Shown here: positions 3,190 to 38,815 of the stretch, piece after piece
How positions within the stretch are numbered: position 1 is the first letter of the stretch
How the letters are laid out: the number at the start of each line of letters is the position of its first letter
DNA from: Trypanosoma brucei
Lineage: Eukaryota
Direction of reading: 5' to 3'
Length of the DNA: 64,000 nt
Assembly: GCA_000002445.1 (NCBI GenBank)
Contig: CM000208.1
Span: 1,280,001-1,344,000 of the forward strand
The notes under the pieces: model-generated
The model's input: the letters and a program-made list of their open reading frames with translations, nothing else
Told to the model about the DNA's origin: nothing
Databases searched by the model: none
Position numbers and translations under genes: made by a program

Positions 3190-4137
3190 ATGGGCTCAAT
3201 GGTAATCGGAGGTGACCGCAAGTCAATCTCCTCGGTCGAACCCCTCACGGCCCTTCAATCGAGTAACGCAACACCCAACAAGGTCAATCAGAGGCCAACT
3301 CCCTCACAGAGGGAACAAAAGCAGGAGACGTCAAAGTCACCGCTTGTTATGCGGGCAAATGCAGCTGCTGATGTGCATCAGTGGCCAGATTTTTCGGGAT
3401 TCCGTGAGAGGAACGACATCTTCAACACCAGTAGTTTACCGCGCTCCCCCAATCAGAAGCAAATGGACACTCATGCAGAGAATAACAGTAAAGCAGAACT
3501 TACCTCACCGGCAAGTGAAGGTAGTGGACGTGTGATGGAACGAAGCATGACAGCGGCGGTATCCGCTCGAACATTTAGTGACGACAGAGTGTTAGATGAT
3601 GAATCTGATATTGACATCGTCATTCACATGCCAACACATTACCAGCCGGGCCCACCGGCACAGATCCAGGAGAAGGAGGTCGTGTCATCATCATCCCCTA
3701 GTTGCAACACAGGTGTCGCACTGTCCACCAACGAGGTGCCCTGTAGGGACATTATTAATTCAGCGGAAAACGAGAAAGTTTCCTTTACTGGGGCATGTCA
3801 GCAAAAAGAGATTGCCCATCTAAACGAATTTGTTGCAGTGGTAAAGGAGGCTGTAGTGAAAGCTGTGGTTGAAATTCCCGCATCGCCAAAGCCTCAACGT
3901 CGACCTCGGTTGACCCGGGCACTTCTCAACAGGACCAGGGAAGTTACCTTTAAGCCGTACACCATCGAGGAGTGGCTGGGGGGCGTACAACTACTTGGGG
4001 ACCAACCGGCTGCGGTTAAAATTTGTTCAGTGGAGAATGTTATACTCACGGCCACGATAGCGACAATGAAGGTGGAGGATCAGTTCACCGGAAGCAACGG
4101 ATGCACCGATGCTAGATTGGAGGAGTCCACTAACTGA
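3190..4137 (+). CDS. Hypothetical protein with a Ser/Pro/Gln-rich low-complexity N-terminal half
   Basis: 315-codon ORF in the same orientation as all neighbouring genes. A polypyrimidine tract plus AG lies upstream at about 3135-3165. I recognise no homology. Confidence 0.45.
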   Translation: MGSMVIGGDRKSISSVEPLTALQSSNATPNKVNQRPTPSQREQKQETSKSPLVMRANAAADVHQWPDFSGFRERNDIFNTSSLPRSPNQKQMDTHAENNSKAELTSPASEGSGRVMERSMTAAVSARTFSDDRVLDDESDIDIVIHMPTHYQPGPPAQIQEKEVVSSSSPSCNTGVALSTNEVPCRDIINSAENEKVSFTGACQQKEIAHLNEFVAVVKEAVVKAVVEIPASPKPQRRPRLTRALLNRTREVTFKPYTIEEWLGGVQLLGDQPAAVKICSVENVILTATIATMKVEDQFTGSNGCTDARLEESTN

Positions 4138-6920: not shown

Positions 6921-8216
6921 ATGCAACACATTAACCATAGATTCAGTTACTTCATAGATAACTACATTCTACTACTTGCAGAGCGGTTTGGTATTCCACT
7001 CAGCACTGAGGCCCCTTCAGAACGCAGCGGCGGTGACGACGTTGACGATATCGATGGGAGCGGTCTCGCGAAATGGGAGCAAGTTGCCGAATGTGTGCGG
7101 GAGGCGTTGAGTCGCCCGAAGACGGCAGAAGAGCGCCAAGCGCTTCTTCACGTCGACGTGAGTATGCTTGATGCAAAGGTTTGCCGCGGGAGGTTGCAAT
7201 ATCTCATATGGCAAGCTGAAAGGTCGGTGGAGGGTGGGGTTGGGGAGAGGATAAAAGGAAAGGAATCACCATCCTTTTCGGTATTTAATATCACACGTGA
7301 CTCACTACGGGACAAAATTCAGGGCATATATGCCTCGGTTCGGGATCATTTACCGAGCACAATCGCCCCTCGACGCAACCACAACGGGAATTCCACCGGG
7401 CCCGCCGTTCAAAGTGGTTCACAGGGAGATAAGGACGTTATGGATTACGATAGTGACGGTGACGGAAGCGAAGGCAGTCTTCATGTCGTTGATGTCGTTT
7501 TGCCAACGGAGGCGGAGGCTCGGCGTAACCGAGTGGTGGCGGAAGCTCGTGATGATCTTCTGTCGAAGATACAAAAAATGCAACTGGATTTCTTTGAGAA
7601 GCATAGACGATGGGTGGACGTTCCCTTCGATTTCGACACTGTTCCTAACGATGGTAGTGGGCCTGAGGAAACATCCCCTCAATCGGACAGCACTGGACTT
7701 TCGAAATCCGCCGCGCGAGAGGCACTGGAAAATGGAACTCCAACTCGGTTACCACCCAGTAGTGAGATGCCAGAGCCCACAATGCGCAACGAACTTGCAG
7801 GGGAATCTGATGGCCCTAAACTTGATCCGATAATGAGTCTTTTCAACGCCCTGCGGGAGGACCGTCGCGTCGGGCGCCCACCACGCCCTTCTCAAATGAG
7901 GGAAGAGGATTACGAAAAGCAATACGTGCATGCCTCAACAATGCCCTCCGCCCCCGCTGGGTTTCCTAATGCATTGGATGGACAAACTATCCGCCGTTTC
8001 AATGGGAGGCCGAGCACTGAGTCCGTGCGAACGCCGGAACCCGAAAAGCCGGCGAATGAGCCTCTGCCCATCAAGAACACCATCAGTAATGGCGGCGCCG
8101 TGACACATGAGGGGCGCGCACCACAGCTACGGGCAAATAGGTGGAATGTTGTGGAGTACGACGGTGAGGATAGCTCTGAAAGTGAGAGTAGCACCGATGT
8201 AGAATGCGTGACGTAG
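6921..8216 (+). CDS. Hypothetical acidic protein with Asp/Glu/Ser-rich low-complexity stretches
   Basis: 431-codon ORF on the + strand, preceded by a strong polyY tract. I recognise no domain. Confidence 0.45.
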   Translation: MQHINHRFSYFIDNYILLLAERFGIPLSTEAPSERSGGDDVDDIDGSGLAKWEQVAECVREALSRPKTAEERQALLHVDVSMLDAKVCRGRLQYLIWQAERSVEGGVGERIKGKESPSFSVFNITRDSLRDKIQGIYASVRDHLPSTIAPRRNHNGNSTGPAVQSGSQGDKDVMDYDSDGDGSEGSLHVVDVVLPTEAEARRNRVVAEARDDLLSKIQKMQLDFFEKHRRWVDVPFDFDTVPNDGSGPEETSPQSDSTGLSKSAAREALENGTPTRLPPSSEMPEPTMRNELAGESDGPKLDPIMSLFNALREDRRVGRPPRPSQMREEDYEKQYVHASTMPSAPAGFPNALDGQTIRRFNGRPSTESVRTPEPEKPANEPLPIKNTISNGGAVTHEGRAPQLRANRWNVVEYDGEDSSESESSTDVECVT

Positions 8217-10068: not shown

Positions 10069-11571
10069 ATGAACCCGTCCTATTTGAATCAGATATTGAG
10101 TTACCCCCAACGCGAATCGCTAATTTCGGAGTGCCCCGCGCTTGCACTCCTCTGCTATCAGGAATTAGTGGCTGCCTTCCGCAAAGGGAAACGCATTGCT
10201 GATCCGCTGTCTTTGAGGGATGATGTCACAGTCCTACTTTCCATTGGATCGTTGCATGAACTGACGGACCGGATTTTCTCAGCTGCACCGCATGAATCCG
10301 CTTTGCCTCCTCTCTGGTGTACGCTTCGGAAGGCTCTTGAGTGTGCCTGGGACCCCAGAGGTGATGGTGAGCGACAATGTGAACTAACGATGGTGGGTGG
10401 GAAACTCCGATTTTACAAGAAAAAATGTGATAGGATGCCGCTTGCACAGTCATCAATGCGGAACGCACTTAATATGAGTAGAACACGCATTCGAGAAGTT
10501 ATTGCCTGTGCCCTATCGGGTTCACTGGAGCCCCTTGGAGGGAGACGTAACGAGCCTATCGCTGCATTACTTCAGTTTTCCCGCCTGATCCCACCACCGT
10601 CGGAAGAGCGGGTCGTCACCTCTGAAGGATTGGCATTTTGCATGCAGCCCCTTCAACAACAGTGGTGGACATTAGTATCTGTTGTGTTAGATCGCGCACT
10701 GGCCATAATGTCGGGTAAAGGAGTCTCACGCGCCACTCTTTGGCAGCTTCTAGCTGTTCTGTTTGCACTTAACACAAGTGATTATGTTTACTTGTTTCCT
10801 TCAAAGGATGATGACCTTGAGGCCTTTCAACTGCTGGCGCGCCTCTCGGAGGTCGGGTTGGTTTACCCCCTTATTTGTAACGGAGAGAAATGCTTTGTGC
10901 TTTCTCCCCACTTCCACCACGCCATATGTTGGAGTTCTACACCATCGCTTTGCACAGCGGCATTGCTGGACGACACGAGGGGTCCATCGTCTCGTCTACG
11001 GCGGGAGGATGAAGATACTATCATCACTGAAACAAATTTTCGACTATACGCATACACGAAAAATCCTGACATGCTGCGCATTCTTGATCAATTTGCGGTA
11101 AAGGAAGTGGATGTGGTGGGAATGGTTGTATGCTACAGGGTGACACGAGCATCATTTGCAAGTGCACTAGCGAAAGGCATAGGCGCAAACCATATATTGC
11201 AATTTCTTACGGTGAAGGCACATCCTTCTATGATCAAGCAGAGCAATAGTGAGGCTGGTGACCCGTCGTGCCCGGTTCTCCCCGCTGCTTCTGTGGGATT
11301 CGGTAATACATCTGAATATCGTCAGGGAAATATTATACCACAATCCTTTTGTGATCAACTGTTCACGTGGGAGAGGGAATGCCGAAGACTAATTTTTCGT
11401 CACGATGTGGTGCTGTTGAAAAATATCGGGAAAGAGCAGATGGAAATAATCTTAAACTGTCTTTCAAATAGTGGGGAACAGCACGCCGTGGTGCATCGCG
11501 AGAGCGGTACTTTGGCCATTGAACAGGAGGTTTACACGCGTGTACTGTCCAATTTCATTACTCCGGATTAA
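10069..11571 (+). CDS. Probable general transcription factor TFIIH subunit p52 (Tfb2/GTF2H4 family)
   Basis: The segment DTIITETNFRLYAYTKNPDMLRILDQF matches the Tfb2/p52 hallmark motif (ETNFR-x-YAYT), as I remember it. A downstream ...DQLFTWERE... resembles the conserved DQIRLWE region. The length of 500 aa is typical of p52. The polyY tract and AG at 10035-10062 give an acceptor just upstream of the ATG. Confidence 0.65.
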   Translation: MNPSYLNQILSYPQRESLISECPALALLCYQELVAAFRKGKRIADPLSLRDDVTVLLSIGSLHELTDRIFSAAPHESALPPLWCTLRKALECAWDPRGDGERQCELTMVGGKLRFYKKKCDRMPLAQSSMRNALNMSRTRIREVIACALSGSLEPLGGRRNEPIAALLQFSRLIPPPSEERVVTSEGLAFCMQPLQQQWWTLVSVVLDRALAIMSGKGVSRATLWQLLAVLFALNTSDYVYLFPSKDDDLEAFQLLARLSEVGLVYPLICNGEKCFVLSPHFHHAICWSSTPSLCTAALLDDTRGPSSRLRREDEDTIITETNFRLYAYTKNPDMLRILDQFAVKEVDVVGMVVCYRVTRASFASALAKGIGANHILQFLTVKAHPSMIKQSNSEAGDPSCPVLPAASVGFGNTSEYRQGNIIPQSFCDQLFTWERECRRLIFRHDVVLLKNIGKEQMEIILNCLSNSGEQHAVVHRESGTLAIEQEVYTRVLSNFITPD

Positions 11572-12056: not shown

Positions 12057-13400
12057 ATGCGTAGGGGACCACAATGGTTTATCCAGAGCCGGTCACGTGA
12101 ACGGTTTCACCAGTTATGGCCATGGGCACTTGGGGGCGTATGTGCCACTTTGTACTTCTTCAATCGCGAGCCTTTTGAAGAAATGGCTGGTACTGTGGTA
12201 ACTAAGATACGGAAACCCCTACTCAAGACGATGGAATGGATTGAACTGCACGATGTGGACCCGGAGACGATGGCGCTGGAACTTCCTCCTGACGTGCTTT
12301 TTGGCCCCTTGGAGTTCTCAAAGCAGATGCGATTCCTAATGGCTGCGCTACGGGCTGATAATGAACTTGCCGATGGGTATCTTGCTCGTGTGCTGGTGGA
12401 TCATATGGATCTTTCTCTCGATCCACCATTGCTCACGGAAAAGGAAATTCTCGAGACAGGTGGGAGGCAGTTGCTTGACTTTGCCATTGAGGATTTTTTG
12501 GGTGCAGGTTCTAGGAAGACTCGGAAGCATATATTCTTTAGGCCAGACCAATTTCTTCGTCTTATAAACTTTTTAGCCGTTTATCCGTCATTGACAAACT
12601 ACTTTGTGAAGGAACGCAACGGTGTGGACATGATTTTTCGCGCGCTACGGCACAGCAGCGACGAATTCGCACGTGTTCTGGCGCTTCGCAGCCTATGTCT
12701 ATTCTGCTTTACGCAGCGCGAAGACGGCGACGTGGAGCGGCGAATAATGCAGGCGAATGGTGTTGAGCAAATTGTGAAAGCTTATAAGCAAAGTACGGGT
12801 GACCCAACCGACACAAGGTACATCACCTTACTCGTCTCTTCCCTGTTGCGCCACTATCCTCTAGAGGGCGGAAAAGAATTTGTTGAGGCTGATGGCATTC
12901 AGGCAGCTGTTGACAACTTGAATATTGCTCGGTACAAGGGCATACCTCAACATGTGCGAGTTCTTCATGATGCGAAACGACTCCCACCAGCGGCCATTGG
13001 CGGGAGGTCCATCAATTCGCGCATTGAGGATGCTGACTTTATTCCTATAGCGATGGGTCTTCTTGATGCCTTTCCTGAATTCTACGAAGCTTCTAGTGAG
13101 ATATTACTACTACTACGAAGTATTGTACCGTCGTGTGCGAGTCCGTTTAACCTTTTGGAGTATCGTGCTATGCCTATTTTATCAAAATATTATGTGCGAT
13201 GGCAGAATGACACCGTTTTTCACACGGATGGTACGCTCCAGTTGTTGGTGGAACTGTTTAAACTAATGTTAGAGGACCCGACGTGCCAGCGCTGTTTTGA
13301 CCCGAGTGTGGCGTCATATGAGTTGCAGGAGTGTCTGCGGACCGCACGCGCGGCAATTGAAGCGGAATCATCCAAACCTGTGGTGCAACCCACACTTTAG
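12057..13400 (+). CDS. Hypothetical conserved protein, possibly helical-repeat or ARM-like. The true start may be a downstream Met, for example the Met of ...EEMAGTVV....
   Basis: 447-codon ORF on the + strand. A polyY tract lies upstream at 11700-11760. I recognise no diagnostic motif. Confidence 0.5.
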   Translation: MRRGPQWFIQSRSRERFHQLWPWALGGVCATLYFFNREPFEEMAGTVVTKIRKPLLKTMEWIELHDVDPETMALELPPDVLFGPLEFSKQMRFLMAALRADNELADGYLARVLVDHMDLSLDPPLLTEKEILETGGRQLLDFAIEDFLGAGSRKTRKHIFFRPDQFLRLINFLAVYPSLTNYFVKERNGVDMIFRALRHSSDEFARVLALRSLCLFCFTQREDGDVERRIMQANGVEQIVKAYKQSTGDPTDTRYITLLVSSLLRHYPLEGGKEFVEADGIQAAVDNLNIARYKGIPQHVRVLHDAKRLPPAAIGGRSINSRIEDADFIPIAMGLLDAFPEFYEASSEILLLLRSIVPSCASPFNLLEYRAMPILSKYYVRWQNDTVFHTDGTLQLLVELFKLMLEDPTCQRCFDPSVASYELQECLRTARAAIEAESSKPVVQPTL

Positions 13401-13723: not shown

Positions 13724-14093
13724 TATTCCTGCATCTTGAAGTTCCCGTGTATTTTCTGAGGGCGAGACATTTATAACGTAAAAGTGGTATTATTTTCAGA
13801 TACATCGCCTCTTTCCCTCTATCTCTCTCTTTCTCTGGCGGACGTTTATTTTTGTTTTATACACACCTCCAGTGGTAATTTGTTTTTCTTGTATTCTCTG
13901 CGTGCTGAAGTTCCACTTTGTTCCGTTCCATGTTATAGAGTAGTGTGAACTCAAATGTGTGAGGGAAATAAGAGCTGTCTGATTATCTTCTGTGTGTGTT
14001 TGTGTGTTTGTGTGTTTGTGTTTGTTCGGGAAGTTCACGTGCAGAAGTGTATGCGTTACATTATTTTGATACCACTGTATTATTTAGGTATTA
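13724..14093 (+). repeat. Copy B of the ~350-bp dispersed repeat, with a longer (TG)n/(TGTGTTTG)n tract than copy A
   Basis: See copy A. The internal microsatellite tgtgtgtgtttgtgtgtttgtgtgtttgtgtttg is expanded relative to copy A. The flanks diverge beyond about 13724 and about 14093. Confidence 0.85.
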
Positions 14094-14291
14094 CCACCTT
14101 ATGTGTTTTATTGGTTTATCTTTTTTTTTTCATATTTAGTGGCGAAAGGGGGGTTTGCTTCGTGAGTTTGTGCTCTTGTGTTGAGAAAGGGATCAAACAA
14201 TCACCGAATTGGTCGAAGCTAAGTGACCTGAATCGTTTCTAAGTAAGAGAATATTTTTTAATTAACCGATAGATATTCAAAGGAATCGATT

Positions 14292-15104
14292 ATGAGCAGT
14301 TCTGAACACGATAGTCGTGTTGCGTACTGTAAGGAGCATAATGTGCATCATCTCTTTGAGCTCATGGCTTCCAGGTTGCTAGTTGAGCGCCCCGAGAACC
14401 CTTTTGAATACCTTCGGGAGTTGCTGGTCACGGTGGAGAACTCCAAGAAGCAAACAGCACATGATCCCACAATGCTTCCGTCGTCGCCATTGGGGGCGAA
14501 GGACAAGCTGACGAAGATCACAATAGGCACATTTGGTATTGAGAATGCCGGCAAAACAACGATCATTTCTGCTTTGGGAGGAAATATTGAGAAGAATCCT
14601 ATGCCTACCGTCGGATTCACTCCTACAAGATTCCAGACGGATAGGTGCGATCTTTGCATCTTCGACCTTGGCGGAGGCGCCAACTTTCGAGGAATTTGGG
14701 TTCACTATTTCCACGACTGTCATGGTTTCATGTTCGTCATCGACTCTGCAGCGGATGATGCGGTTGTGGAGGAATCCCTCAATGCACTTCGCACTGTAGC
14801 GCAGCACAAGCATGTGCGTGGCAAGCCGGTGCTGGTGCTGGCTAACAAAAAGGACTTAAAGAGTAGCAGAGGCGTTGAGATTGTTTCTGAAGGCCTCTTG
14901 GAGGAACTCTTTGGGGATGTTTCTCTCTACCATCTAGTGCCTTCATGTGGCATTGAGGAGGATCCTGAACTGGAGAAGGGCGTTGATTGGCTATTGACGA
15001 AGATACAGAAGGAATATACTCACATTGATAAGTTGGTGGAAAGTCAGACGCTGGAGGTAAAAATGGAGGCGGAACAAAAGAGGAAGAAGTTGCTTGAAGA
15101 ATAG
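14292..15104 (+). CDS. Arf-like small GTPase with an N-terminal Dpy-30/RIIa-type dimerisation/docking motif and a C-terminal coiled coil. Its switch II is atypical, DLGGG in place of the DVGGQ found in Arf proteins.
   Basis: P-loop GIENAGKTT, switch II DLGGGANFRGIW and NKxD motif LANKKDL (shown as read from the sequence). The N-terminal ERPENPFEYLRELL resembles the Dpy-30/RIIa core ERPPNPIEFLASYLL. The C-terminal tail EVKMEAEQKRKKLLEE is coiled-coil-like. Confidence 0.85.
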   Translation: MSSSEHDSRVAYCKEHNVHHLFELMASRLLVERPENPFEYLRELLVTVENSKKQTAHDPTMLPSSPLGAKDKLTKITIGTFGIENAGKTTIISALGGNIEKNPMPTVGFTPTRFQTDRCDLCIFDLGGGANFRGIWVHYFHDCHGFMFVIDSAADDAVVEESLNALRTVAQHKHVRGKPVLVLANKKDLKSSRGVEIVSEGLLEELFGDVSLYHLVPSCGIEEDPELEKGVDWLLTKIQKEYTHIDKLVESQTLEVKMEAEQKRKKLLEE

Positions 15105-16356: not shown

Positions 16357-19300
16357 ATGACTTTAATTCCTCAAAACCCCTACCGAATGAGTTTCAGCAG
16401 ATGTAATAATGAGCGAAAAGCTTCAATTCCCTTGCAACCGACCAACACGAATGGGGGGATCAGTGCTGATAACACTGGTGTAGATCTTAAAGCTCATCGT
16501 GTGACTCCATTCACCACCACATTTGGACGGAGACACACCCTATATGGGGAGACAGAGATACGCGAGGCAAAGGAAACTTTAGCAAAGTTATTTGTGCCAG
16601 TGGCAAAGTTGGGAATGTACCGGCTGCGAAGAAGTAGACTGCACAAAAAGAATTCAGAGCTTCGGAGCTACACTATCGACTCCATTGTTCAGGCATACCG
16701 GAGTTCCAACTCAATAATCTCCACTTGGCCTATGGACGTGCTAACCTTGCTTGCTGAGGGAGCACAGTATCACTACTTAGAAGATGGCGAGGTGATTGTA
16801 TATGCGAGGGAATGGTACTTGTCGACTGGAATTATTGTTGTTCTCTTCGGTGAGGTGCAGGAGACGCTACCAAAATCTGAGAAAAACTTCACACCGAATA
16901 AGACGTCTGGTAACATACGGCACCCTGAGCGTTCCGTTTTATGCGAACAAACCGTTCTCTGTAGGGATTTTGCACCTTCGCGTCTAAAGGCGCACGGTTA
17001 TGCCGATGTAGCAGTAATACCCGCTCGCTGGGTTTGGGATGCCATCAATTACACCTCAATGGAGCCATTTGCTGAGGGGATGCTAGACTCTTTGAGAATG
17101 ACTGTTGCACCATTATGTGAAAGCGTTTTGGAACGAACGTACTTTCCCACCGCGTTGACGCTTCGTCGCAGTTGGCTTTGGTCTTTCTTCAGTGCAGGGG
17201 AGCGAATTCGTCTCGCACGCCTCATGGAGGTGAAGGTGTTTTGCGCTGGCGACACCCTGTTTGGTGAAGGGGACCGTAATCCGTACGTGTACATCATTCG
17301 CCGCGGTGCCGTTCGGGTTGTGGTGTGCAAGGAGCCCATTTTGGACTTTGGCCCCGGCGCAGCCTTCGGCGAGGTGAGTGTCATTTTTGATGAACCACGC
17401 TGCTGCCATGCGATTGCCACGTGTTTATGTGAAGTTTACTGTTTGCACCGTCGTCACATTATGAAGCGACTCAGGAAGAAGGCGCACGTGTGTGATAGCG
17501 TGATTGGAACAGCCCTGAGAAGGCGTGAGCAGTGGTTGGAGGACGCCAAGACAAGGCACGTGATGAGCCTTACTGTTTTGTTAGGAGGCGTCCCCTGTCT
17601 CAGTCAGGCGACAGAAAAGGTCCGAGCGGCCATAGCGGAGAAGGCCAAAACAGTGGTGCTGCCCCCGCGACAAGTGTTATTCAAAAAGGGAACCTTGTGC
17701 GATCATCTTTTCATTGTGGGGCGGGGAACCCTCTTAATGGAAGGTGCTGAAGATACTGTAGCGACTCGTACGTCAACGGGGTTTGTGGGTGAGTTGTTTC
17801 TCCATCCGCATTTGTGGCCCACAGACGTTACCTCCCTCACATCTGTTGATGGCTGGATGTTCCACGTTGATGTAGTGAAGGATGCGCTTGATAGCATAAA
17901 CGCAAGGGAACAGGCAGTTGACATATGCCGTCAGGGGATTGAACTTTATCGCGCTCAGTACGGGCCGGAAAGTGTTATGGAGCCAACCCCTGCACCCCGA
18001 AAGTTGGGTCCCGCGCGTAAAGGCACAACTGCCTTTTCTTCGGGGGCGAAGCAGTCAAATTCACTCCGTCAGAAGGGGCAACCCAGAAGTCCGTCACTTC
18101 CCAGCACGCCAAGGCTTGTAGCGGTAGCGAAGACTACTCCTGTGAAGGAGGAGCCACTGGAGAAGTTTGATTGGAACGCGTATGCAATCGAGGATAAGGT
18201 AGCGCTGCCCTCAGCGGACACGGATGAAAGTGATAAGCGCAGTGAACGGCAGCAGACCGAGCATGTCATTGAGGCTGAACTCGGTGGGCAGGCGGGGAGT
18301 TTGTTGTCCGCTGGTGTAGGGCTAGGAATTAGTGCTATTGACTGCGACTTTTCTGATGAGGTGGATGAGATGCGGCAAATGTTACTTGAGCAGGCCCTTC
18401 TAATACCTTCAAACAGACTACTGTTCTTCCTCAGGCAAATAAATCGCAGCAAGGTTACATTGGTGGTGGACGACGGTGCCGTTGTGACGGGAGAGTGTTC
18501 GTTAGAGACAACCGTGGGTGACGATCTGACGTTCCCCCAGTACGTCTTACCGCCCTCTGTTGTGTACACTTTAGACAATGTGAACACTTATAATGTGGAT
18601 GGCGCGCCATTTAACGGGGAGGACGTGCTAAACGACACCAACCGACAGTTAGCAGACGGAGTCGGTACGACTGCGCACCGACGAGCACGCACTCCCGAAG
18701 TTGCTCTTGTGACACCAGATTTTATGTCAACGTTTCGCTCCACCGATGAAATGGCAAATACAACCTTAAAGGGGCAACAGTTTGGCGGCCTTTCATTGTT
18801 CCTGCGGTCCGGTCGTCCATGTTCGGGGCTCAGTGGTAAGCACCATCTACAGCATTCATCGTCCCTTTATGGGACGCTGCGGCGTAGGAGTCTTAGCGGG
18901 GTGAGCAGAAATTATACTCCTTATCCCCAAACTCCTTTTACGCCTGATGTACACGGTTCGACACAGTACAGTTTCTCTAACATATACACAAGACTCAATA
19001 GCGTGGATTACACACAACAAGCGAAAATCACAGCTTCTGCACTCCAGTCTGCTCTTGATCGTTTTGTGAAACTGGACGACCAAAATTACTTTCAACAAGT
19101 GGTGCGTGTCTGCTTACCAACAGAGGCAGAGCAGCAGTTGATTACGGAAGAGGTTGGTAGTGGTGGTAAGAGTAGCTGTGACTTGATACTACTGCTGATG
19201 CACGTTAGGAAGTGTGAGGGCCTCCAGCTAAGTGACGATATGCAGTACCCTATTGTGAAGGTTTATACCAAGACGCGCGTCCTCATCAGAACGCCAATTA

Positions 19301-21465
19301 TGGAGGATCGTGTGGAACCGGACTGGCCGATTGAGGTGGCCTCTTTTATAACATTTATTCGCCGTGATGCTGACGTCAGCTTTTGCATCTGTGATGCGGG
19401 CCAGGAAGATAAGGTTGAATATACTGCCAACCTGGCCGCAGCTGACTTAGGAGAGAATAGGGGTGTTGGCCTTCGGAAGTTGGTCATGCATCGTGGGGCT
19501 ACGGAATCTAATGATGAAATCAATGAGACCAAAGCCACTATTGAGGTGTGCATGATGGCCGTTACTACTTCCAAGCACCACGCACTGCAGAAGCATCTTG
19601 ATGAGGAGGAGGACGCTTGCAAATCATCTGATGACTTTAGTGCAATCTACCTGCAGGTACTGGGGGTGAAAGGCTTAAAGCATCGTATAGAGGCTGCCGT
19701 CCATATTAGTGTGGAGATGGATGGGAAGACAAAAGAGGTTCTGCGCACCCATAAGATCGCACCCAAAACACGCTCTCCCGCGTGGCCGGGGCAAACCAGT
19801 TTTTGTGTTGCTCAGGGGGACGGTGTAATCAGTTTTGATCTTTTCCATCGCGACACGTTTGTGGCGTCGTACGATACTTCCGTCGACACTCTCGCATTTG
19901 GCGGTACCGGTGTGCAGTGTTTACCTCTCCTTCGCGCTCAGGGGACCGGCGGGGACCCCTATGGCGACTTGTATGTTTCCATTCTTGGAACCAAAACACC
20001 ATGTGGGGAGGAGGACGTCGTGGAGCGACCGTCGAAGTTGCTTGTCGTGCATGTGGAGGCGCTTTCTCTACGCCAAAATCTGGATTTAGAGTTTGTACCT
20101 GATCCATTTGTCATTATCCGGGGCCCCAAAGGGGAGGTAATTATGCGCACCGCAATGAACTTTGGTACGTATGAGGCGAAATGGTCGGAGGAACGTGCTT
20201 CTTGCTTCATCCTTTGCCCCTCGCTCCCCGGTTGCGTCGTAACGTATCACTTGGAGGTGTATGACAACAATGAGTCGAGCAAGATTGGTGAAGCAACAAT
20301 GACGGTTACCGTGAACGGCACAAAACGCAATCGTATGATGCTTGACATTGGGGGAAAGGGACTACTCACAGTGGTGGCTCATTCGTTTCCAATACAAGAT
20401 GTTATCAGCCACAGCCAACCGCCTGGATCAGGTCTTACCAATCACCTCACCGACACCTCCAGCTCTAGTATAGAAGAAGGTTACTTCTTGCAGGTTCATA
20501 TTTGTAGTTGTGAGAGCCTTCAGGGGACTGGGTTTGATGATTTCCAGATTGACCCTGTCGTAACTGCACGGGTTGGACGGAAGCGTATTGTAGTTGCACC
20601 ACTCGTGTCGGGCTGTACGGCACCCCAGTGGAAGTATCCGAAAGCCACTTTTGTCCTTCCGTTTGTCCCTGACGTTCTCAGCCATATCGTTTTGGAGGTT
20701 TGGGACACCAACATCGAGCTATGCGATGTTCTCGGCGTCGCCCGCCTTCCAATGGAAGAGATATGCCGAACTGGAACACACAAATACACTCTGCAGCCAC
20801 ATAAGGATCAAGAGTATGGTCGGCGCAGGGATTTAGGTACCATTGTGGTAAACACTCGGTTCGGTCGCGTAAATGGAGCTGTCGTTTCTAAGGAGTCGCC
20901 CTTGTTCTTTTCAGCGGGCTCTTCAGGCTCAGGTATCTTTCGGTCCCGTTTATTTCCTTCTACGAATAGGGGGCCAAACCTCCCCATCACTCGAGTCCGT
21001 TTGCACATATCCAGCTGCTGCTCTGCCGTATCCGCATGGCCTTTCGACTTTATAAAGGTGACATTAACATGCCTTCATCATGTTTTGCTTGAGGTGCGTA
21101 AATCCTGCAAAGATGAATTCTTCGTCGCATGGTCCGTTGATGATGCGCAAACTATCGTGGACCTTAGGGCCATATACGGACGATCCCTGCGACTCGCTGT
21201 TTCTGGTGGAAAGGAAGAGACTGGACGATTAACAACCCACATTGGCGCCGCGCATTTGCCCTTTTCAACGCTGGCATCAGCGTCCCCGGAGGTTGTCTCT
21301 GTGCGGAGTTTACCACTAGTAGACCAGGCAACTGAGGAACGGAGTAGCGGGAGTAGAAGTGGTCGGCGATGTGTAACTCCGAGTGTTTCAGCGCAGGAAC
21401 CTAGTATAACCGTGTCCCTTCTTGCGCTTGATTCTGACCACTCTGTGAGCTTGGGAAGTGAGTAG
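16357..21465 (+). CDS. Large (1702 aa) protein with two tandem cyclic-nucleotide-binding-like domains followed by several C2-like beta-sandwich domains
   Basis: The first cNMP-binding-like segment is LFGEGDRNPYVYIIRRGAVRVVV...FGEVSVIF and the second is LFKKGTLCDHLFIVGRGTLLMEG...FVGELFL. Three C2-like segments are IYLQVLGVKGLKHRIEAAVHISVEMDGKTKEVLRTHKIAPKTRSPAWPG, LVVHVEALSLRQNLDLEFVPDPFVIIRGPKGEV and FLQVHICSCESLQGTGFDDFQIDPVVTARVGRKRIV...LEVWDTN. The ORF is uninterrupted. PolyY tracts run through 16000-16130 upstream. Confidence 0.8.
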   Translation: MTLIPQNPYRMSFSRCNNERKASIPLQPTNTNGGISADNTGVDLKAHRVTPFTTTFGRRHTLYGETEIREAKETLAKLFVPVAKLGMYRLRRSRLHKKNSELRSYTIDSIVQAYRSSNSIISTWPMDVLTLLAEGAQYHYLEDGEVIVYAREWYLSTGIIVVLFGEVQETLPKSEKNFTPNKTSGNIRHPERSVLCEQTVLCRDFAPSRLKAHGYADVAVIPARWVWDAINYTSMEPFAEGMLDSLRMTVAPLCESVLERTYFPTALTLRRSWLWSFFSAGERIRLARLMEVKVFCAGDTLFGEGDRNPYVYIIRRGAVRVVVCKEPILDFGPGAAFGEVSVIFDEPRCCHAIATCLCEVYCLHRRHIMKRLRKKAHVCDSVIGTALRRREQWLEDAKTRHVMSLTVLLGGVPCLSQATEKVRAAIAEKAKTVVLPPRQVLFKKGTLCDHLFIVGRGTLLMEGAEDTVATRTSTGFVGELFLHPHLWPTDVTSLTSVDGWMFHVDVVKDALDSINAREQAVDICRQGIELYRAQYGPESVMEPTPAPRKLGPARKGTTAFSSGAKQSNSLRQKGQPRSPSLPSTPRLVAVAKTTPVKEEPLEKFDWNAYAIEDKVALPSADTDESDKRSERQQTEHVIEAELGGQAGSLLSAGVGLGISAIDCDFSDEVDEMRQMLLEQALLIPSNRLLFFLRQINRSKVTLVVDDGAVVTGECSLETTVGDDLTFPQYVLPPSVVYTLDNVNTYNVDGAPFNGEDVLNDTNRQLADGVGTTAHRRARTPEVALVTPDFMSTFRSTDEMANTTLKGQQFGGLSLFLRSGRPCSGLSGKHHLQHSSSLYGTLRRRSLSGVSRNYTPYPQTPFTPDVHGSTQYSFSNIYTRLNSVDYTQQAKITASALQSALDRFVKLDDQNYFQQVVRVCLPTEAEQQLITEEVGSGGKSSCDLILLLMHVRKCEGLQLSDDMQYPIVKVYTKTRVLIRTPIMEDRVEPDWPIEVASFITFIRRDADVSFCICDAGQEDKVEYTANLAAADLGENRGVGLRKLVMHRGATESNDEINETKATIEVCMMAVTTSKHHALQKHLDEEEDACKSSDDFSAIYLQVLGVKGLKHRIEAAVHISVEMDGKTKEVLRTHKIAPKTRSPAWPGQTSFCVAQGDGVISFDLFHRDTFVASYDTSVDTLAFGGTGVQCLPLLRAQGTGGDPYGDLYVSILGTKTPCGEEDVVERPSKLLVVHVEALSLRQNLDLEFVPDPFVIIRGPKGEVIMRTAMNFGTYEAKWSEERASCFILCPSLPGCVVTYHLEVYDNNESSKIGEATMTVTVNGTKRNRMMLDIGGKGLLTVVAHSFPIQDVISHSQPPGSGLTNHLTDTSSSSIEEGYFLQVHICSCESLQGTGFDDFQIDPVVTARVGRKRIVVAPLVSGCTAPQWKYPKATFVLPFVPDVLSHIVLEVWDTNIELCDVLGVARLPMEEICRTGTHKYTLQPHKDQEYGRRRDLGTIVVNTRFGRVNGAVVSKESPLFFSAGSSGSGIFRSRLFPSTNRGPNLPITRVRLHISSCCSAVSAWPFDFIKVTLTCLHHVLLEVRKSCKDEFFVAWSVDDAQTIVDLRAIYGRSLRLAVSGGKEETGRLTTHIGAAHLPFSTLASASPEVVSVRSLPLVDQATEERSSGSRSGRRCVTPSVSAQEPSITVSLLALDSDHSVSLGSE

Positions 21466-24571: not shown

Positions 24572-26539
24572 ATGTCTGGCACTAATCACCTCCGTCAGGT
24601 GGTTCCCGCAGCCGTTTACAACCCAATACCTCCTGCACCACCGTTCATGGTGTTTTGCGACCCGTACGCGAAGGTCGCCAACGCTACTGCAAAGTACAGG
24701 AATCAACCGCCAGTCGCACCGAACGCTGCCGCTGTTTTTCAGCAGCAACTCTACAGTTTACCTTTTCATGGTGTTGCTGGGGTTCCCGCCCCTATGCGTG
24801 AAGAAGAGGACGCTGATGGGTCTTTTGAGGTTCACGACAGCTGCCTCAAGGCACCTATTACTGTAGGGCGTCGAGTTGTAATCCCCACTACCGGAAGCCG
24901 TGGCCTTTTCAACTGTGCGCAGCTTCCAAGTAATGGAAACAGTGGTGGTAACTGCAATAACAACTCCAATAGTAACGGGAATGGTGGGAAAAGTTTCGCG
25001 CGAATTTGTGACGCCCATCCCGAGGGAAGGTGTATTTCAGGTGAACAGTGCCCTGACATTCATGTGCAGGCCGAGTACCTAACTGCTCAGCGACAGGAGA
25101 TGATATTCTGGCTTGAAAGTAAGGAACGTGAGTTCCAGAACACACTGCGTGCGGATCCGACCAAGATGTTCCGTGTGTTCTGTGCGGACCTTAAAGAGGC
25201 CGTGGAAGTCCCGATTAGCGCGTTGCAATTCACTAAAGGTCTATACGTGGATCCGTCGGTTCGGGCTCGCCGGGCGCGTGCGGGTCATCAGAACCAGTTC
25301 GCGATGTTAGCCTCGCAGTTACCAACTGCCTGCGGATTGTTTCTTAGCAACCCTTCGCAGTGCAGGTGGGCCCGTTGGTGTAACCAAATTCATGTCGACT
25401 TCACGTGGATGCAGACGAAGAAGAAAGAGTTTGAGTCGTGGTTCAACGAACTGGAGGGACGCTTCAATGCACTTCCCGATGACTACGAGTTTCATGTGCA
25501 CGACCCACAGCTTAAAATGGGTTTAAGAATTCCGAAAGCAAGCATTGCTGTCTTTTCTCGTGGTCTCTTTCAGGGATCGCCGAAGAAGGCGCCGAGTGTC
25601 TGCATGCTCTTTCAACGGGACCGGTGCACAGCAAATGTGTGCTGCAATCAAATTCATGTGATACCGCGGTACTTAGCTTTGCATCGACTTTTGATACAAA
25701 AAGGGGACAGCATTACTGAAGAGGAGCGCGGGAACATTATGAATCAAATGAAGGAGATACTGGAGTCGCAGAAGCGGAGCATGCAGGTTGCGGACGATGG
25801 TGACGCCAACTTTCTCGCAAGGGAGCTAAATCCTCAGGCCGTACCGTACGTCCCACCGCAGCCAACAAGTGTGTGGCGCACGGGGGGCTCTGCGGGTAGC
25901 AGCAGTCCACCACGGACAGCAGCGGCTCCCATTCCTGTTCCCGAGCCCCTTCCAACATTCCGCCAACCACCGCAGTGGAACGAACACTCACCTTCAGCTG
26001 CTGTGGATGGCTCTCCGTACGCTTCCCCTCACCGACGCGTTGAAAGGTGTGGTAGCAGCGGCACGCGGGACTTGCACACCTGTTCCAATCCACTGGAAGA
26101 TTTGATTGAGTTCGTGGATGGGGACAAGTCGCGTACGTCTCTTCTCGCAAGTCAGAGTACAACGAGTCAGGCTAGTCGCAGTTGCAAGCACACCAATAAC
26201 CCTTATGCGTTTGGTGCGAGCTATAAATGTACCGCATCACCCACTTTTGGATGGGTCCAACCTGTTTACAGTGCAGCAAATAGCGGCTCGACACATCCAG
26301 CGAACCGCTCGTGGGGAAGTGGCAGCGTTACAGGCGGGTGTCAACCCATTCGAGTGCGTGTAGGAGGTGGTGGAATTATGGAACATGAACCGTTGGAGCC
26401 CTTTTCTTTGGATCAACACGATATGGGTGCCAGTCCCTTTGAATGTCGCTCACCAGCGCACCGGACGTTGGGATCAAGAACTATAGAAGACCGCCTCAGT
26501 TCTTCGCCAACGTGGAGTGCCACGCAGAAACAGAGATGA
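24572..26539 (+). CDS. CCCH-type zinc-finger protein with three C-x7-9-C-x4-5-C-x3-H fingers. It is a putative RNA-binding regulator with a Gln/Asn/Ser/Pro-rich C-terminal half.
   Basis: The three fingers are CDAHPEGRCISGEQCPDIH, CGLFLSNPSQCRWARWCNQIH and CMLFQRDRCTANVCCNQIH. The last two share a CNQIHV core. The rest of the protein is low-complexity, as is common in kinetoplastid ZC3H proteins. Confidence 0.75.
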   Translation: MSGTNHLRQVVPAAVYNPIPPAPPFMVFCDPYAKVANATAKYRNQPPVAPNAAAVFQQQLYSLPFHGVAGVPAPMREEEDADGSFEVHDSCLKAPITVGRRVVIPTTGSRGLFNCAQLPSNGNSGGNCNNNSNSNGNGGKSFARICDAHPEGRCISGEQCPDIHVQAEYLTAQRQEMIFWLESKEREFQNTLRADPTKMFRVFCADLKEAVEVPISALQFTKGLYVDPSVRARRARAGHQNQFAMLASQLPTACGLFLSNPSQCRWARWCNQIHVDFTWMQTKKKEFESWFNELEGRFNALPDDYEFHVHDPQLKMGLRIPKASIAVFSRGLFQGSPKKAPSVCMLFQRDRCTANVCCNQIHVIPRYLALHRLLIQKGDSITEEERGNIMNQMKEILESQKRSMQVADDGDANFLARELNPQAVPYVPPQPTSVWRTGGSAGSSSPPRTAAAPIPVPEPLPTFRQPPQWNEHSPSAAVDGSPYASPHRRVERCGSSGTRDLHTCSNPLEDLIEFVDGDKSRTSLLASQSTTSQASRSCKHTNNPYAFGASYKCTASPTFGWVQPVYSAANSGSTHPANRSWGSGSVTGGCQPIRVRVGGGGIMEHEPLEPFSLDQHDMGASPFECRSPAHRTLGSRTIEDRLSSSPTWSATQKQR

Positions 26540-37678: not shown

Positions 37679-38815
37679 ATGACCGGGTTGAAGATTGACA
37701 TCGATATGTTGCCGAACGATAGCGACGAAAACCTGCGTATGCTTCACGAGGGCATTCGTCTGGGTGAACTAACCGTGTCCGCGGAGGGTCTCACAACGTC
37801 TATGGGACAAAAATACGTCCTTTCACCAGAGGATGTACTTGTCAACAATACGAGTTTTTTAGGCCGTGGAAGCAGTGGTTCTGTCCGTCGGGCCACACAC
37901 CGAAAAACTGGAAAAGAAATTGCACTCAAGGAAATAAAGTTCACAGGTCAAACCCGCATGATGGAGATTCGACGTGAACTTGAAACCCTTCACCGTGGCG
38001 GCGGGCCGTCCCCATATTTGGTTGATTTCTACGGCGCATTTTGTCATGAGGGCTCCGTTTTCATTGCCATGGAGTGTATGGATGGTAGTTTAGACGGTGT
38101 GGCAGGGTCTGTTCCTCCAAAAGTTTTAGAGTGTATCACACGGAGTATTCTTCGCGGTTTGTCTTATCTTCACAAGGATAGGCATCTCATTCACCGCGAT
38201 ATAAAACCCAGTAACATCTTGTACAGCCGGGATGGGAGCATCAAAATATCAGACTTTGGAGCAAGTTCGTGTCTGGAGTGCACCCGCGGAAATGCATTTA
38301 GCTTCGTTGGAACACTTACCTATATGAGTCCTGAGCGTTTGAAAGGGGAACCGTATTCTTTCCCGGCGGATATATGGTCACTTGGTCTTGCTGTTGCTGA
38401 ACTCGCCCTTGGCAAGTGCCCATTCATTGATAGGCTTTCACGGGCTAATGGTTCTACAGAGGGTTGCTTTTGGGTTCTACTGCAGCATTTAAATGGTGAT
38501 GGTCCTGTGATTTCTCTTCCATCATCCATGAATGCTTCAATGACGGATTTCATCACGACGTGCATTCAAAGGGAACCGTCCAAGCGCCCGACGTGTGATG
38601 AACTCCGGCGGCACCCTTTTGTTGCCGAAGGGGACGAGGAGAATGACAAGAATGTCATCAAACAATGGCTCTCCACCATGCAACCGAAGTCTTCGTCACA
38701 CGACATAGCTGATGTGGATGGTGTATGCCGAATGCAGCAGGTGCCGTGTAGCATGGGTGGTGCGGATGAATCATCATTCGATCTCGACGAGGAACTAAAT
38801 AAGTTGGTGCAGTGA
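37679..38815 (+). CDS. Dual-specificity MAP kinase kinase (STE7/MEK family)
   Basis: ATP-binding loop GRGSSGSV and VAIK-type Lys (IALKEI). Catalytic loop HRDIKPSNIL, DFG, and an activation segment GTLTYMSPER typical of MEKs. The polyY tract at 37620-37670 ends in AG. Confidence 0.88.
   Translation: MTGLKIDIDMLPNDSDENLRMLHEGIRLGELTVSAEGLTTSMGQKYVLSPEDVLVNNTSFLGRGSSGSVRRATHRKTGKEIALKEIKFTGQTRMMEIRRELETLHRGGGPSPYLVDFYGAFCHEGSVFIAMECMDGSLDGVAGSVPPKVLECITRSILRGLSYLHKDRHLIHRDIKPSNILYSRDGSIKISDFGASSCLECTRGNAFSFVGTLTYMSPERLKGEPYSFPADIWSLGLAVAELALGKCPFIDRLSRANGSTEGCFWVLLQHLNGDGPVISLPSSMNASMTDFITTCIQREPSKRPTCDELRRHPFVAEGDEENDKNVIKQWLSTMQPKSSSHDIADVDGVCRMQQVPCSMGGADESSFDLDEELNKLVQ

What the first reader, a model, noticed from the sequence alone, without database searches (positions are those of the whole stretch)
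14292..15104. Arf-like GTPase with an N-terminal Dpy-30/RIIa docking motif and a Gly in place of the Arf switch-II Gln
The 270-aa protein joins three parts: a Dpy-30/RIIa-like helix pair (ERPENPFEYLRELL), an Arl G-domain and a C-terminal coiled coil. In canonical Arf proteins switch II reads DVGGQ and the Gln is catalytic. Here the sequence reads DLGGG. ARL13-type GTPases also lack the Gln and also have a C-terminal coiled coil. The added RIIa/Dpy-30 module would let it dock onto AKAP-like or radial-spoke-type amphipathic helices. Together this suggests a structurally anchored ciliary GTPase with slow hydrolysis, rather than a classical switch.
Basis: partly seen in the sequence, partly recalled or inferred. 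Interest (0 to 1): 0.55.

Follow-up and report, generated by a model that had tools for sequence, protein, structure and literature searches.

The report
Trypanosome Arl13 with axoneme-docking domain

Summary
The G-domain is an Arl13 orthologue. Its best solved-structure matches by sequence and by fold are Chlamydomonas Arl13B. Switch II reads DLGGG in an ungapped alignment where Arf, Arl2 and Arl3 have GGQ, and there is no offset Gln.

The N-terminal module fails Pfam thresholds as a single sequence (Dpy-30, 13 bits against a cutoff of 22). A profile of 28 kinetoplastid N-termini hits the PKA RI-alpha dimerisation/docking (D/D) domain at E=4e-5. An AlphaFold model superposes on it at 0.8 Å. 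Dpy-30 itself scores E=1.5. The module is therefore an RI-type D/D domain, not a Dpy-30 domain.

The protein is 100% identical to T. brucei-group entries. It corresponds to TbArl13, Tb927.10.5230 (Zhang et al. 2018, J Cell Sci). That paper showed that the D/D domain is necessary and sufficient for axoneme docking, that the protein self-associates, that it is a GEF for TbArl3A and TbArl3C, and that it is essential for flagellum biogenesis. Vargová et al. 2021 classed the domain as DD_RI_PKA and as a Euglenozoa-wide trait, which I reproduced here.

Verdict: observation confirmed, interpretation supported, already known. The axonemal docking partner is still unidentified.

The parts
14292..15104 (+). 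Complete CDS of TbArl13 (270 aa plus stop), the T. brucei Arl13/Arl13b orthologue
   Evidence: ORF and translation. 100% identical to a T. equiperdum / T. brucei-group protein. The exact protein is encoded on megabase-scale chromosomes of T. brucei-group assemblies with the same neighbours. Matches the published 270-aa Tb927.10.5230.
14292..14447 (+). N-terminal dimerisation/docking (D/D) domain, RI-alpha type, residues 1-52. Helices at 3-15 (N-1), 18-32 (I) and 37-52 (II). Includes RPENPFEYLRELL.
   Evidence: Profile against PDB: RI-alpha D/D at E=4e-5. Pfam RIIa in 10 of 28 orthologue N-termini. AF2 pLDDT 88.8. Foldseek top hit 5hvz_B, rmsd 0.8 Å. Y12, H19, E23, A26 and P34 are invariant in 41 orthologues. 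Experimentally necessary and sufficient for axoneme association, using aa 1-62.
14448..14510 (+). Low-confidence, length-variable linker, residues 53-73
   Evidence: pLDDT about 52. Highly variable in length and sequence among orthologues.
14511..15011 (+). Arf-family G-domain of Arl13 type, residues 74-240
   Evidence: Pfam Arf E=3.5e-28. Chlamydomonas Arl13B is the best PDB match by sequence (E about 3e-33) and by fold (E=3.3e-18).
14535..14558 (+). P-loop GIENAGKT, residues 82-89
   Evidence: Motif scan. G82, A86, G87 and K88 are invariant.
14664..14678 (+). Switch II / G3 motif DLGGG, residues 125-129. Gly129 sits where Arf, Arl2 and Arl3 have the catalytic Gln.
   Evidence: Ungapped alignment with Arf, Arl2, Arl3 and animal ARL13B. 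In 41 kinetoplastid-type orthologues this position is A (23), G (14) or S (4), never Q. The other Euglenozoan representatives checked have G, A, S or R.
14844..14855 (+). G4 motif NKKD, residues 185-188 (guanine specificity)
   Evidence: Motif scan. N185, K186 and D188 are invariant.
15012..15101 (+). Arl13-specific C-terminal helix (the annotated 'coiled coil'), residues 241-270
   Evidence: AF2 helix 242-269, pLDDT 87-97. Aligns to the CrArl13B post-G-domain helix. Weak heptad pattern. The paper states that this motif is required for catalytic function in Arl13b proteins.
14115..14139 (+). Putative polypyrimidine tract plus AG trans-splice acceptor of the mRNA (inferred only)
   Evidence: Read directly from the sequence: tttatcttttttttttcatatttag, about 150 nt upstream of the ATG. 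The low-GC (0.37) intergenic region is typical of trypanosomatid polycistrons. No transcript data were examined.

Best explanation
The ORF is TbArl13 (Tb927.10.5230), the single Arl13/Arl13b orthologue of the Trypanosoma brucei group. It has three parts. An N-terminal PKA-RI-type dimerisation/docking (D/D) domain dimerises the protein and docks it on a limited number of sites on the flagellar axoneme, enriched proximally; this is the published 'diffusion-retention' targeting model. An Arl13-type G-domain has Gly in place of the Arf switch-II catalytic Gln. An Arl13-specific C-terminal helix follows it. [quoted passage not shown] This creates high Arl3-GTP inside the flagellum, which releases lipidated cargo from carrier proteins and supports flagellum biogenesis.

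Shown by experiment in the literature: flagellar and axonemal localisation; necessity and sufficiency of the D/D domain; self-association; competition by free D/D domain; GEF activity; RNAi lethality; rescue by a membrane-tethered catalytic domain.

Shown here by computation: Arl13 orthology, absence of the Gln, the RI-type D/D fold, and Euglenozoa-wide conservation of the architecture.

Inferred: very slow intrinsic GTP hydrolysis, and binding of the D/D dimer to an amphipathic helix of an AKAP-like axonemal protein.
For: Identity:
- 100% match to T. brucei-group proteins on megabase-scale chromosomes, with identical neighbours.
- The paper describes a 270-aa protein with D/D aa 1-62 and catalytic domain aa 61-270, and calls it the sole Arl13b homologue in T. 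brucei.

Arl13 assignment:
- Phmmer against PDB gives CrArl13B at E about 3e-33, against Arl6 at 6e-23 and Arf1 at about 1e-17. The alignment runs through the C-terminal helix.
- The Foldseek top four hits are CrArl13B chains.
- DLGGG aligns ungapped with animal and algal ARL13B DLGGG and with Arf/Arl GGQ.

D/D domain:
- Family profile against RI-alpha D/D, E=4e-5, covering the whole domain and sharing Y..(K/Q).HN(I/V) and RPE.P..(F/Y)LRE.
- Pfam RIIa best E=1e-5 among the orthologue N-termini.
- AF2 pLDDT 88.8, and Foldseek top hit the RI-alpha D/D domain at rmsd 0.8 Å. Nearly all other hits are D/D folds.
- An independent HHpred-based assignment to DD_RI_PKA is published.

Function: experiments in PMC6140319. 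In Leishmania the ARL13B deletion gives short flagella, and the proximal localisation depends on the docking complex.

Conservation: the D/D-Arl13 architecture is present in trypanosomatids, bodonids, Apiculatamorpha, diplonemids and Euglena.
Against: - The single T. brucei sequence does not reach any Pfam D/D-family threshold.
- Foldseek E-values for the 55-residue module are individually non-significant (best 0.2) because the domain is so short.
- The D/D dimer and its complex with an anchoring helix were not modelled.
- The docking partner is unknown.
- GTP hydrolysis by TbArl13 has not been measured in the paper read.
- In the rescue experiment neither axoneme docking itself nor the gradient was essential, only flagellar enrichment. 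The specific anchoring mode is therefore dispensable for the core function.
- I could not check the gene identifier Tb927.10.5230 against a TriTrypDB record directly. The link rests on organism, length, domain boundaries and 'sole homologue'.
Confidence: 0.95

Rival explanations
1. The N-terminal module is a Dpy-30-type domain rather than an RI/RIIa-type domain. It would then dock on Dpy-30-specific helices, such as the second amphipathic helix of RSP3 that binds RSP2/RSP23, or Ash2L-like SDI motifs.
For: The only Pfam hit of the T. brucei sequence itself is Dpy-30, at E=0.05-0.09 on the RPENPFEYLRELL segment. Eleven of 28 orthologue N-termini touch Dpy-30 weakly, best E=0.026. Dpy-30 structures appear in the Foldseek list with TM about 0.64.
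Against: All Dpy-30 hits are below the gathering score and cover only 15 residues of helix II, a motif shared across the whole D/D clan. The family profile scores RI-alpha at E=4e-5 over 43 residues, against E=1.5 for a Dpy-30 protein. Pfam RIIa reaches 1e-5. The structural fit to RI-alpha is rmsd 0.8 Å and TM 0.76, against about 1.6 Å and 0.64 for Dpy-30. The N-1 helix motif Y-x-K-x-H-N-I/V is RI-alpha-like. The published HHpred assignment is DD_RI_PKA.
Confidence: 0.04
2. It is a generic or lineage-specific Arf-like GTPase, for example a divergent Arl3 or Arl6 paralogue that happens to have lost the Gln. It would not be a true Arl13 orthologue, and the C-terminal helix would be an unrelated coiled coil.
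For: Public annotations call it only 'ADP-ribosylation factor, putative'. It lacks the N-terminal palmitoylation cysteines and the long Pro-rich tail of animal ARL13B.
Against: CrArl13B beats every other Arf or Arl by about 10 orders of magnitude in sequence E-value, and the alignment extends through the C-terminal helix. CrArl13B chains are also the best fold matches. Published phylogeny places it in the Arl13 clade, and it has Arl3 GEF activity. CrArl13B also lacks the palmitoylation site. About half of Arl13 sequences have no predicted N-terminal palmitoylated Cys, and 11 of 70 depart from the canonical C-terminal architecture.
Confidence: 0.01
3. The protein is a conventional GTP/GDP switch whose hydrolysis is supplied in trans by an undiscovered GAP. 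The GAP would provide the catalytic residue, as RapGAP does for Rap. Nucleotide state, not anchoring, would then be the main regulator of its GEF output.
For: All nucleotide-binding motifs are intact and invariant: P-loop, switch-I Thr106, DxxG and NKxD. The position after GG tolerates G, A, S or R, so it is not under selection for a particular catalytic side chain. That is compatible with catalysis in trans.
Against: No such GAP came up in the two trypanosome ARL13 papers read here. To my knowledge (not checked with these tools) no ARL13B GAP has been identified. [quoted passage not shown] No hydrolysis data are available for TbArl13. This idea concerns regulation and does not conflict with the identity assignment.
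Confidence: 0.1

Closest known systems
TbArl13 (Tb927.10.5230), Zhang et al. 2018 J Cell Sci 131:jcs219071 (PMC6140319)
   Same: Same protein: T. brucei group, 270 aa, D/D domain aa 1-62, G-domain without the switch-II Gln, C-terminal coiled-coil motif.
   Different: Nothing detectable. The window's strain or subspecies was not determined. The protein sequence is identical in T. equiperdum and in assemblies GCA_000210295.1 and GCA_003543875.1.
Chlamydomonas reinhardtii Arl13B (PDB 4m9q; 5di3 in complex with Arl3)
   Same: G-domain plus following helix. About 30% identity by Foldseek, phmmer E about 3e-33, identical FDLGGG...RG.W switch II, no N-terminal palmitoylation site. GEF for Arl3.
   Different: CrArl13B has no D/D domain and has a long C-terminal tail. 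The trypanosome protein ends right after the helix and carries the N-terminal D/D domain and linker.
Human/animal ARL13B (Joubert syndrome GTPase)
   Same: Orthologous G-domain with DLGGG and a coiled-coil helix; ciliary; Arl3 GEF. The invariant R133 here corresponds to the Joubert R79 position; that mapping is from my own knowledge of the human sequence, while the invariance is.
   Different: The animal protein is anchored to the ciliary membrane by N-terminal palmitoylation and targeted by a C-terminal VxP motif in a long Pro-rich tail. The trypanosome protein is anchored on the axoneme by a D/D domain.
PKA RI-alpha dimerisation/docking domain (PDB 2ezw, 3im4, 5hvz; CDD DD_RI_PKA)
   Same: Three-helix module (N-1, I, II) with shared Y..K.HN(I/V) and RPE.P..(F/Y)LRE motifs. 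Profile E=4e-5, model rmsd 0.8 Å. Mediates self-association and docking.
   Different: It is attached to a small GTPase, not to a cAMP-binding regulatory subunit. Helix I carries an invariant His-His (H19-H20) where RI-alpha has Gln-Ala. The RI-alpha disulfide cysteines (Cys16 and Cys37, bovine numbering from my own knowledge) have no counterpart at the aligned positions of the alignment. The anchoring partner is unknown.
Axonemal RIIa/D-D proteins (Chlamydomonas FAP385 and RSP7/RSP11 in radial spokes; mammalian EFCAB10, AK8, SPA17)
   Same: D/D modules used to fix non-PKA proteins on axonemal scaffolds. They appear as weaker profile and fold matches.
   Different: These are structural or enzymatic spoke and central-pair components. 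None is an Arf-family GTPase, and similarity is weaker than to RI-alpha (E=0.006-0.055 against 4e-5).

Membership tests
ARL13 (Arl13/Arl13b) subfamily of Arf-like GTPases | Arf-family G-domain with intact nucleotide-binding motifs | tested here: met
   Pfam Arf E=3.5e-28, 98.7 bits against a cutoff of 22.3. GIENAGKT, PTVGF, DLGG and NKKD are present and conserved.
ARL13 (Arl13/Arl13b) subfamily of Arf-like GTPases | Switch-II catalytic Gln (DxGGQ) replaced, typically by Gly | tested here: met
   Ungapped alignment: Arf, Arl2 and Arl3 have GGQ; animal ARL13B and this protein have GGG. There is no Gln between residues 115 and 171. Orthologues have G, A, S or R, never Q.
ARL13 (Arl13/Arl13b) subfamily of Arf-like GTPases | Helix/coiled-coil immediately after the G-domain, homologous to that of CrArl13B | tested here: met
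   The phmmer alignment to 4m9q/5di3_B extends over query 241-266. AF2 helix 242-269. Foldseek to 5di3_B covers 205 columns of a 204-residue chain.
ARL13 (Arl13/Arl13b) subfamily of Arf-like GTPases | Closest relatives are Arl13 proteins (orthology / clade membership) | tested here: met
   Best PDB sequence and fold matches are CrArl13B, by a wide margin. The non-Euglenozoan best hits carrying a source name are ARL13B: P0057 (UniRef) and P0059 (NCBI). I built no tree. A published phylogeny places it in the Arl13 clade.
ARL13 (Arl13/Arl13b) subfamily of Arf-like GTPases | GEF activity towards Arl3; ciliary localisation | not testable with these tools
   Shown experimentally for this protein in PMC6140319: mant-GDP release from TbArl3A and TbArl3C, and flagellar/axonemal localisation.
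ARL13 (Arl13/Arl13b) subfamily of Arf-like GTPases | N-terminal palmitoylated Cys and long Pro-rich C-terminal tail with VxP (animal-type features, not universal) | tested here: not met
   The N-terminus is MSSSEHDS, the first Cys is C13 inside the D/D domain, and the protein ends 30 residues after the G-domain. These features are not defining across eukaryotes: about half of Arl13 sequences lack a predicted palmitoylated Cys and 11 of 70 depart from the canonical C-terminus.
RIIa / PKA-R dimerisation-docking (D/D) domain (Pfam PF02197; CDD DD_RI_PKA) | Significant profile similarity to the D/D family | tested here: met
   Met at family level: profile of 28 orthologue N-termini against RI-alpha D/D, E=4e-5, 26.7 bits, full domain. 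Ten of the 28 N-termini hit PF02197, best E=1e-5. The T. brucei sequence alone does not hit PF02197.
RIIa / PKA-R dimerisation-docking (D/D) domain (Pfam PF02197; CDD DD_RI_PKA) | Helix-turn-helix protomer of an X-type four-helix bundle | tested here: inconclusive
   The protomer model (pLDDT 88.8) superposes on the RI-alpha D/D domain at 0.8 Å over 44 columns, prob 0.99, but E=0.2 because the domain is short. The hit list is dominated by D/D folds. The dimer was not modelled.
RIIa / PKA-R dimerisation-docking (D/D) domain (Pfam PF02197; CDD DD_RI_PKA) | Dimerisation, and docking onto an amphipathic helix of an anchoring protein | not testable with these tools
   Self-association by co-IP, and saturable, competable axoneme docking, are published. 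The anchoring protein and its helix are unidentified.
Dpy-30 motif (Pfam PF05186) | Profile similarity above the family threshold | tested here: not met
   13-13.7 bits against a gathering score of 22, E=0.05-0.09, only 15 residues. Best among the orthologue N-termini is E=0.026. The profile against a Dpy-30 protein in PDB gives E=1.5.

The most novel reading that the evidence does not exclude
The one open element is the docking site. The RI-type D/D dimer, with its Euglenozoa-invariant His19-His20 pair on helix I, may bind a still-unidentified AKAP-like amphipathic helix. That helix might belong to, or depend on, the proximal outer-dynein-arm docking complex rather than to radial-spoke protein RSP3. 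If so, this would define a lineage-specific, potentially druggable anchoring interface, in organisms where, to my knowledge (not tested here), the PKA regulatory subunit itself lacks a canonical D/D domain. Nothing in my evidence identifies the partner. The idea rests on the reported dependence of proximal ARL13B localisation on the docking complex and on the conserved HH motif.
Probability: 0.25. Interest if true: 0.35.

Novelty: already known. Interest (0 to 1): 0.1.

Why it matters
Arl13b is an ancient ciliary GTPase, and mutations in the human ARL13B gene cause Joubert syndrome. The trypanosome version shows that its essential requirement is enrichment inside the cilium, not a particular anchoring mode. 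Animals use palmitoylation to the membrane, whereas Euglenozoa use a PKA-type D/D domain on the axoneme. This was established in 2018 and extended in 2021 and 2025, so the present finding adds no new biology. The still-unknown axonemal docking partner is the only open question. The 2018 authors suggested the docking machinery as a parasite-specific drug target.

Tried and rejected
(1) Single-sequence Pfam scans of the full protein and of residues 1-72 gave no significant D/D-family hit. This is a sensitivity limit, not evidence of absence, because the family profile succeeds.

(2) Dpy-30 membership was rejected.

(3) An offset switch-II Gln was rejected.

(4) A true heptad coiled coil in residues 241-270 has only weak support: best register 5 of 9 hydrophobic a/d positions. 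I treat the segment as the Arl13-specific helix.

(5) I searched for cryo-EM papers placing ARL13B on the T. brucei doublet microtubule. None of the five returned papers addresses it, judging by title and abstract.

(6) A weak match of the D/D profile to the N-terminus of Leishmania G6PDH (E=0.43 by sequence, E=1.3 by fold) was judged not significant.

(7) My first switch-II regex was off by one residue and returned nothing. It was corrected.

(8) Rfam and tRNA scans of the window found nothing.

(9) The gene is on the + strand like all its neighbours, with no antisense feature of note. The minus-strand ORFs overlapping it (111 and 144 aa) were taken to be chance open frames opposite a coding region and were not searched.
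Full report
**Observation**

The window carries a 270-codon ORF at 14292-15104 on the + strand, starting at the first in-frame ATG.

The ORF has higher GC (0.49) than its flanks (0.37 upstream, 0.43 downstream). It lies in a run of same-strand genes separated by low-complexity T/G-rich spacers, as in a trypanosomatid polycistronic unit. A polypyrimidine tract followed by AG lies about 150 nt upstream of the ATG. It is a plausible trans-splice acceptor, but this is inference only. Forty orthologues align from Met1, which supports the start codon.

**The G-domain**

- Pfam Arf (PF00025) matches residues 75-237 at E=3.5e-28.
- Against all PDB sequences, the two best hits are Chlamydomonas Arl13B (4m9q, and 5di3 chain B) at E about 3e-33. 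The next hit is an engineered miniGq construct (1.8e-27). Next among Arf-family proteins come Arl6 (6e-23) and Arl3 (5e-21), and Arf1 scores about 1e-17.
- The alignment to CrArl13B runs beyond the G-domain, through query residues 241-266.
- An AlphaFold2 model built on 41 orthologues (mean pLDDT 86) has a canonical G-fold at 74-240 followed by one long helix at 242-269.
- The four best Foldseek hits in the PDB are CrArl13B chains, E=3e-18 to 7e-17.

**Switch II**

An alignment with hits that their sources name as Arf1, Arf3, Arl2 or Arl14, plus arthropod and cephalopod ARL13B, has no gap near switch II. The Arf and Arl proteins read WD(V/I/L)GGQ. Animal ARL13B and this protein read DLGGG. The nearest glutamines are Q115 and Q171.

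Among 41 kinetoplastid-type orthologues this position is Ala (23), Gly (14) or Ser (4). In other Euglenozoan representatives it is G, A, S or R, never Q.

The P-loop (GIENAGKT), the switch-I Thr (PTVGF) and NKKD are intact and invariant. The protein should therefore bind guanine nucleotide.

**The C-terminal 'coiled coil'**

Residues 241-270 are confidently helical and homologous to the Arl13B-specific helix. The heptad pattern is weak (5 of 9 at best) and 47% of residues are charged. A helix is shown; a true coiled coil is not.

**The N-terminal module**

As a single sequence it does not pass any Pfam threshold. The best hit is Dpy-30 at E=0.05-0.09 and 13 bits against a cutoff of 22, over 15 residues only.

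The module is, however, among the most conserved parts of the protein in kinetoplastids, including free-living bodonids. Y12, H19, E23, A26 and P34 are invariant, and H20, L21, F22, L24, R33, F38, L41 and R42 are nearly so.

- A profile of 28 such N-termini hits the PKA RI-alpha D/D domain (2ezw, 3im3, 3im4, 5hvz) at E=4e-5 over profile positions 6-48 and chain positions 7-49, which is the entire domain. Weaker hits go to axonemal D/D proteins: EFCAB10 at 0.006, RI-beta at 0.03 and the radial-spoke protein FAP385 at 0.055. A Dpy-30-motif protein scores only E=1.5.
- Scanned one by one, 10 of the 28 N-termini hit Pfam RIIa, best E=1e-5.
- An AlphaFold2 model of the module alone (pLDDT 88.8) has three helices. 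Its top Foldseek match is the RI-alpha D/D domain in complex with the smAKAP helix (5hvz_B): rmsd 0.8 Å over 44 columns, TM 0.76/0.88, probability 0.99.
- The Foldseek E-value is only 0.2 because the query is so short. Nearly all the remaining hits are D/D folds: radial-spoke and central-pair RIIa proteins, SPA17 and Dpy-30.

The module is therefore a D/D domain of the RI type, with the extra N-1 helix. It is not a Dpy-30 domain.

**Identity and literature**

The protein is 100% identical to a T. equiperdum / T. brucei-group entry annotated only as 'ADP-ribosylation factor, putative'. It is encoded on megabase-scale chromosomes of T. brucei-group assemblies with the same neighbours as in the window.

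Zhang et al. 2018 (PMC6140319) describe Tb927.10.5230, TbArl13, as the sole Arl13b homologue of T. brucei. Their description matches this architecture: a D/D domain (aa 1-62), a GTPase domain lacking the switch-II Gln, a coiled-coil motif, no palmitoylation site, no long tail, 270 aa in total. They showed the following.

- The protein is on the axoneme in a proximal-to-distal gradient.
- The D/D domain alone is sufficient, and is required, for detergent-resistant flagellar association.
- Excess free D/D domain displaces it, which indicates limited docking sites and supports a diffusion-retention model.
- RNAi is lethal and disrupts flagellum biogenesis.
- A membrane-tethered catalytic domain rescues, so flagellar enrichment rather than axoneme docking as such is what matters.
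- The recombinant protein accelerates nucleotide exchange on TbArl3A and TbArl3C.

Vargová et al. 2021 (PMC8358228) assigned the extension to DD_RI_PKA by HHpred. They found the architecture in Euglena and proposed it as a synapomorphy of Euglenozoa. They also noted an independent acquisition in stramenopiles and speculated that RSP3 might be the anchor.

A 2025 study reports short flagella on ARL13B deletion in Leishmania. It also reports that the proximal localisation depends on the outer-dynein docking complex.

**Independent replication of the distribution**

An exhaustive hmmsearch with the N-terminal profile against 1.84 billion representatives found 133 proteins at E≤0.001. Of the ten top hits scanned against Pfam, eight have an Arf domain downstream of the D/D match.

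The named ones come from the following organisms:
- Euglena mutabilis;
- Diplonema papillatum (annotated ARL13B);
- Rhynchopus euleeides;
- Namystynia karyoxenos;
- Apiculatamorpha spiralis.

All of these have DLGG followed by G, A, S or R. Other hits are unrelated D/D proteins, for example EFCAB10-like proteins.

**Mechanism**

Shown by experiment in the literature: D/D-mediated dimerisation and saturable docking on the axoneme concentrate the catalytic domain in the flagellum, where it acts as an Arl3 GEF.

Shown here: the orthology, the RI-type D/D fold, the absence of the Gln, and Euglenozoa-wide conservation.

Inferred: very slow intrinsic hydrolysis. This was not measured for TbArl13; 'hydrolysis' does not occur in the paper. 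Also inferred is binding of the D/D groove to an amphipathic helix of an unidentified axonemal anchor.

**Verdict**

- the module is RI-type D/D rather than Dpy-30;
- the key function, Arl3 GEF activity, was missed;
- the radial-spoke anchor is speculative.

The feature is already known, and the interest as a discovery is low. The docking partner is the only open point.

**Surroundings, noted in passing**

- 126-1454: a TPR + DnaJ protein.
- 10069-11571: a Tfb2 homologue.
- 16357-21465, directly downstream of the Arl13 gene: a 1702-aa protein with two cNMP-binding domains and a C2 domain.
- 33088-36495: a protein with three C2 domains.
- 37679-38815: a protein kinase.
- 39573-42215: a DEAH-type helicase (all of the above).
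- 53497 to beyond the window end: a dynein heavy chain of at least 3,501 codons, which the ORF lister omits because it runs off the end.

No tRNA or Rfam family was found in the window.

Noticed in passing
window 53497-63999 (+), runs off the window end: Open frame of at least 3,501 codons that the ORF listing does not show because it runs off the end. Pfam identifies a dynein heavy chain: DHC_N2, AAA_6/7/8/9, MT stalk and AAA lids. Which dynein class it belongs to was not determined.
   Followed up: partly
window 16357-21465 (+): A 1702-aa protein immediately downstream of the Arl13 gene, with two cyclic-nucleotide-binding domains (E=5e-21) and a C2 domain. A cNMP-binding protein sitting next to a gene with a PKA-type D/D domain is probably coincidental in a polycistronic genome.
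   Followed up: no
window 33088-36495 (+): A 1135-aa protein with three C2 domains (E=2e-35) and no other Pfam hit.
   Followed up: no
window 14346-14351 (His19-His20 of the D/D domain): H19 is invariant in 41 kinetoplastid-type orthologues. H20 is nearly invariant there and is replaced in several euglenid and diplonemid representatives (V in Euglena mutabilis, R in Namystynia). Both sit on helix I of the D/D domain, where PKA RI-alpha has Gln-Ala. Possibly a specificity determinant for the unknown anchor; unexplained.
   Followed up: no
P0117 (512 aa, JGI metagenome contig of 1580 bp): Architecture Arf - D/D - Arf: two Arl13-type G-domains, both DLGGA, separated by a D/D match at residues 217-260. 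It could be two tandem genes merged by the gene caller or a real duplicated Arl13, compare the Euglena 'Arl13Triple' in PMC8358228.
   Followed up: no
PDB 7zhy/7zht/9vp5 (Leishmania donovani G6PDH), chain residues ~20-42: The Arl13 D/D profile weakly touches the N-terminal extension of kinetoplastid glucose-6-phosphate dehydrogenase: hmmsearch E=0.43 and Foldseek E=1.3-1.8. Not significant, but it appeared in both independent searches.
   Followed up: no
window 3190-4137, 6921-8216, 12057-13400, 24572-26539 (+): Four ORFs of 315-655 aa with no Pfam hit at E≤0.001. The 447-aa ORF directly upstream of the Arl13 gene is also called as a gene in GCA_000210295.1.
   Followed up: no
window 13980-14035: A (TG)n/(TGTTTG)n-like low-complexity tract in the intergenic spacer upstream of the Arl13 gene, typical of trypanosomatid intergenic DNA.
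   Followed up: no
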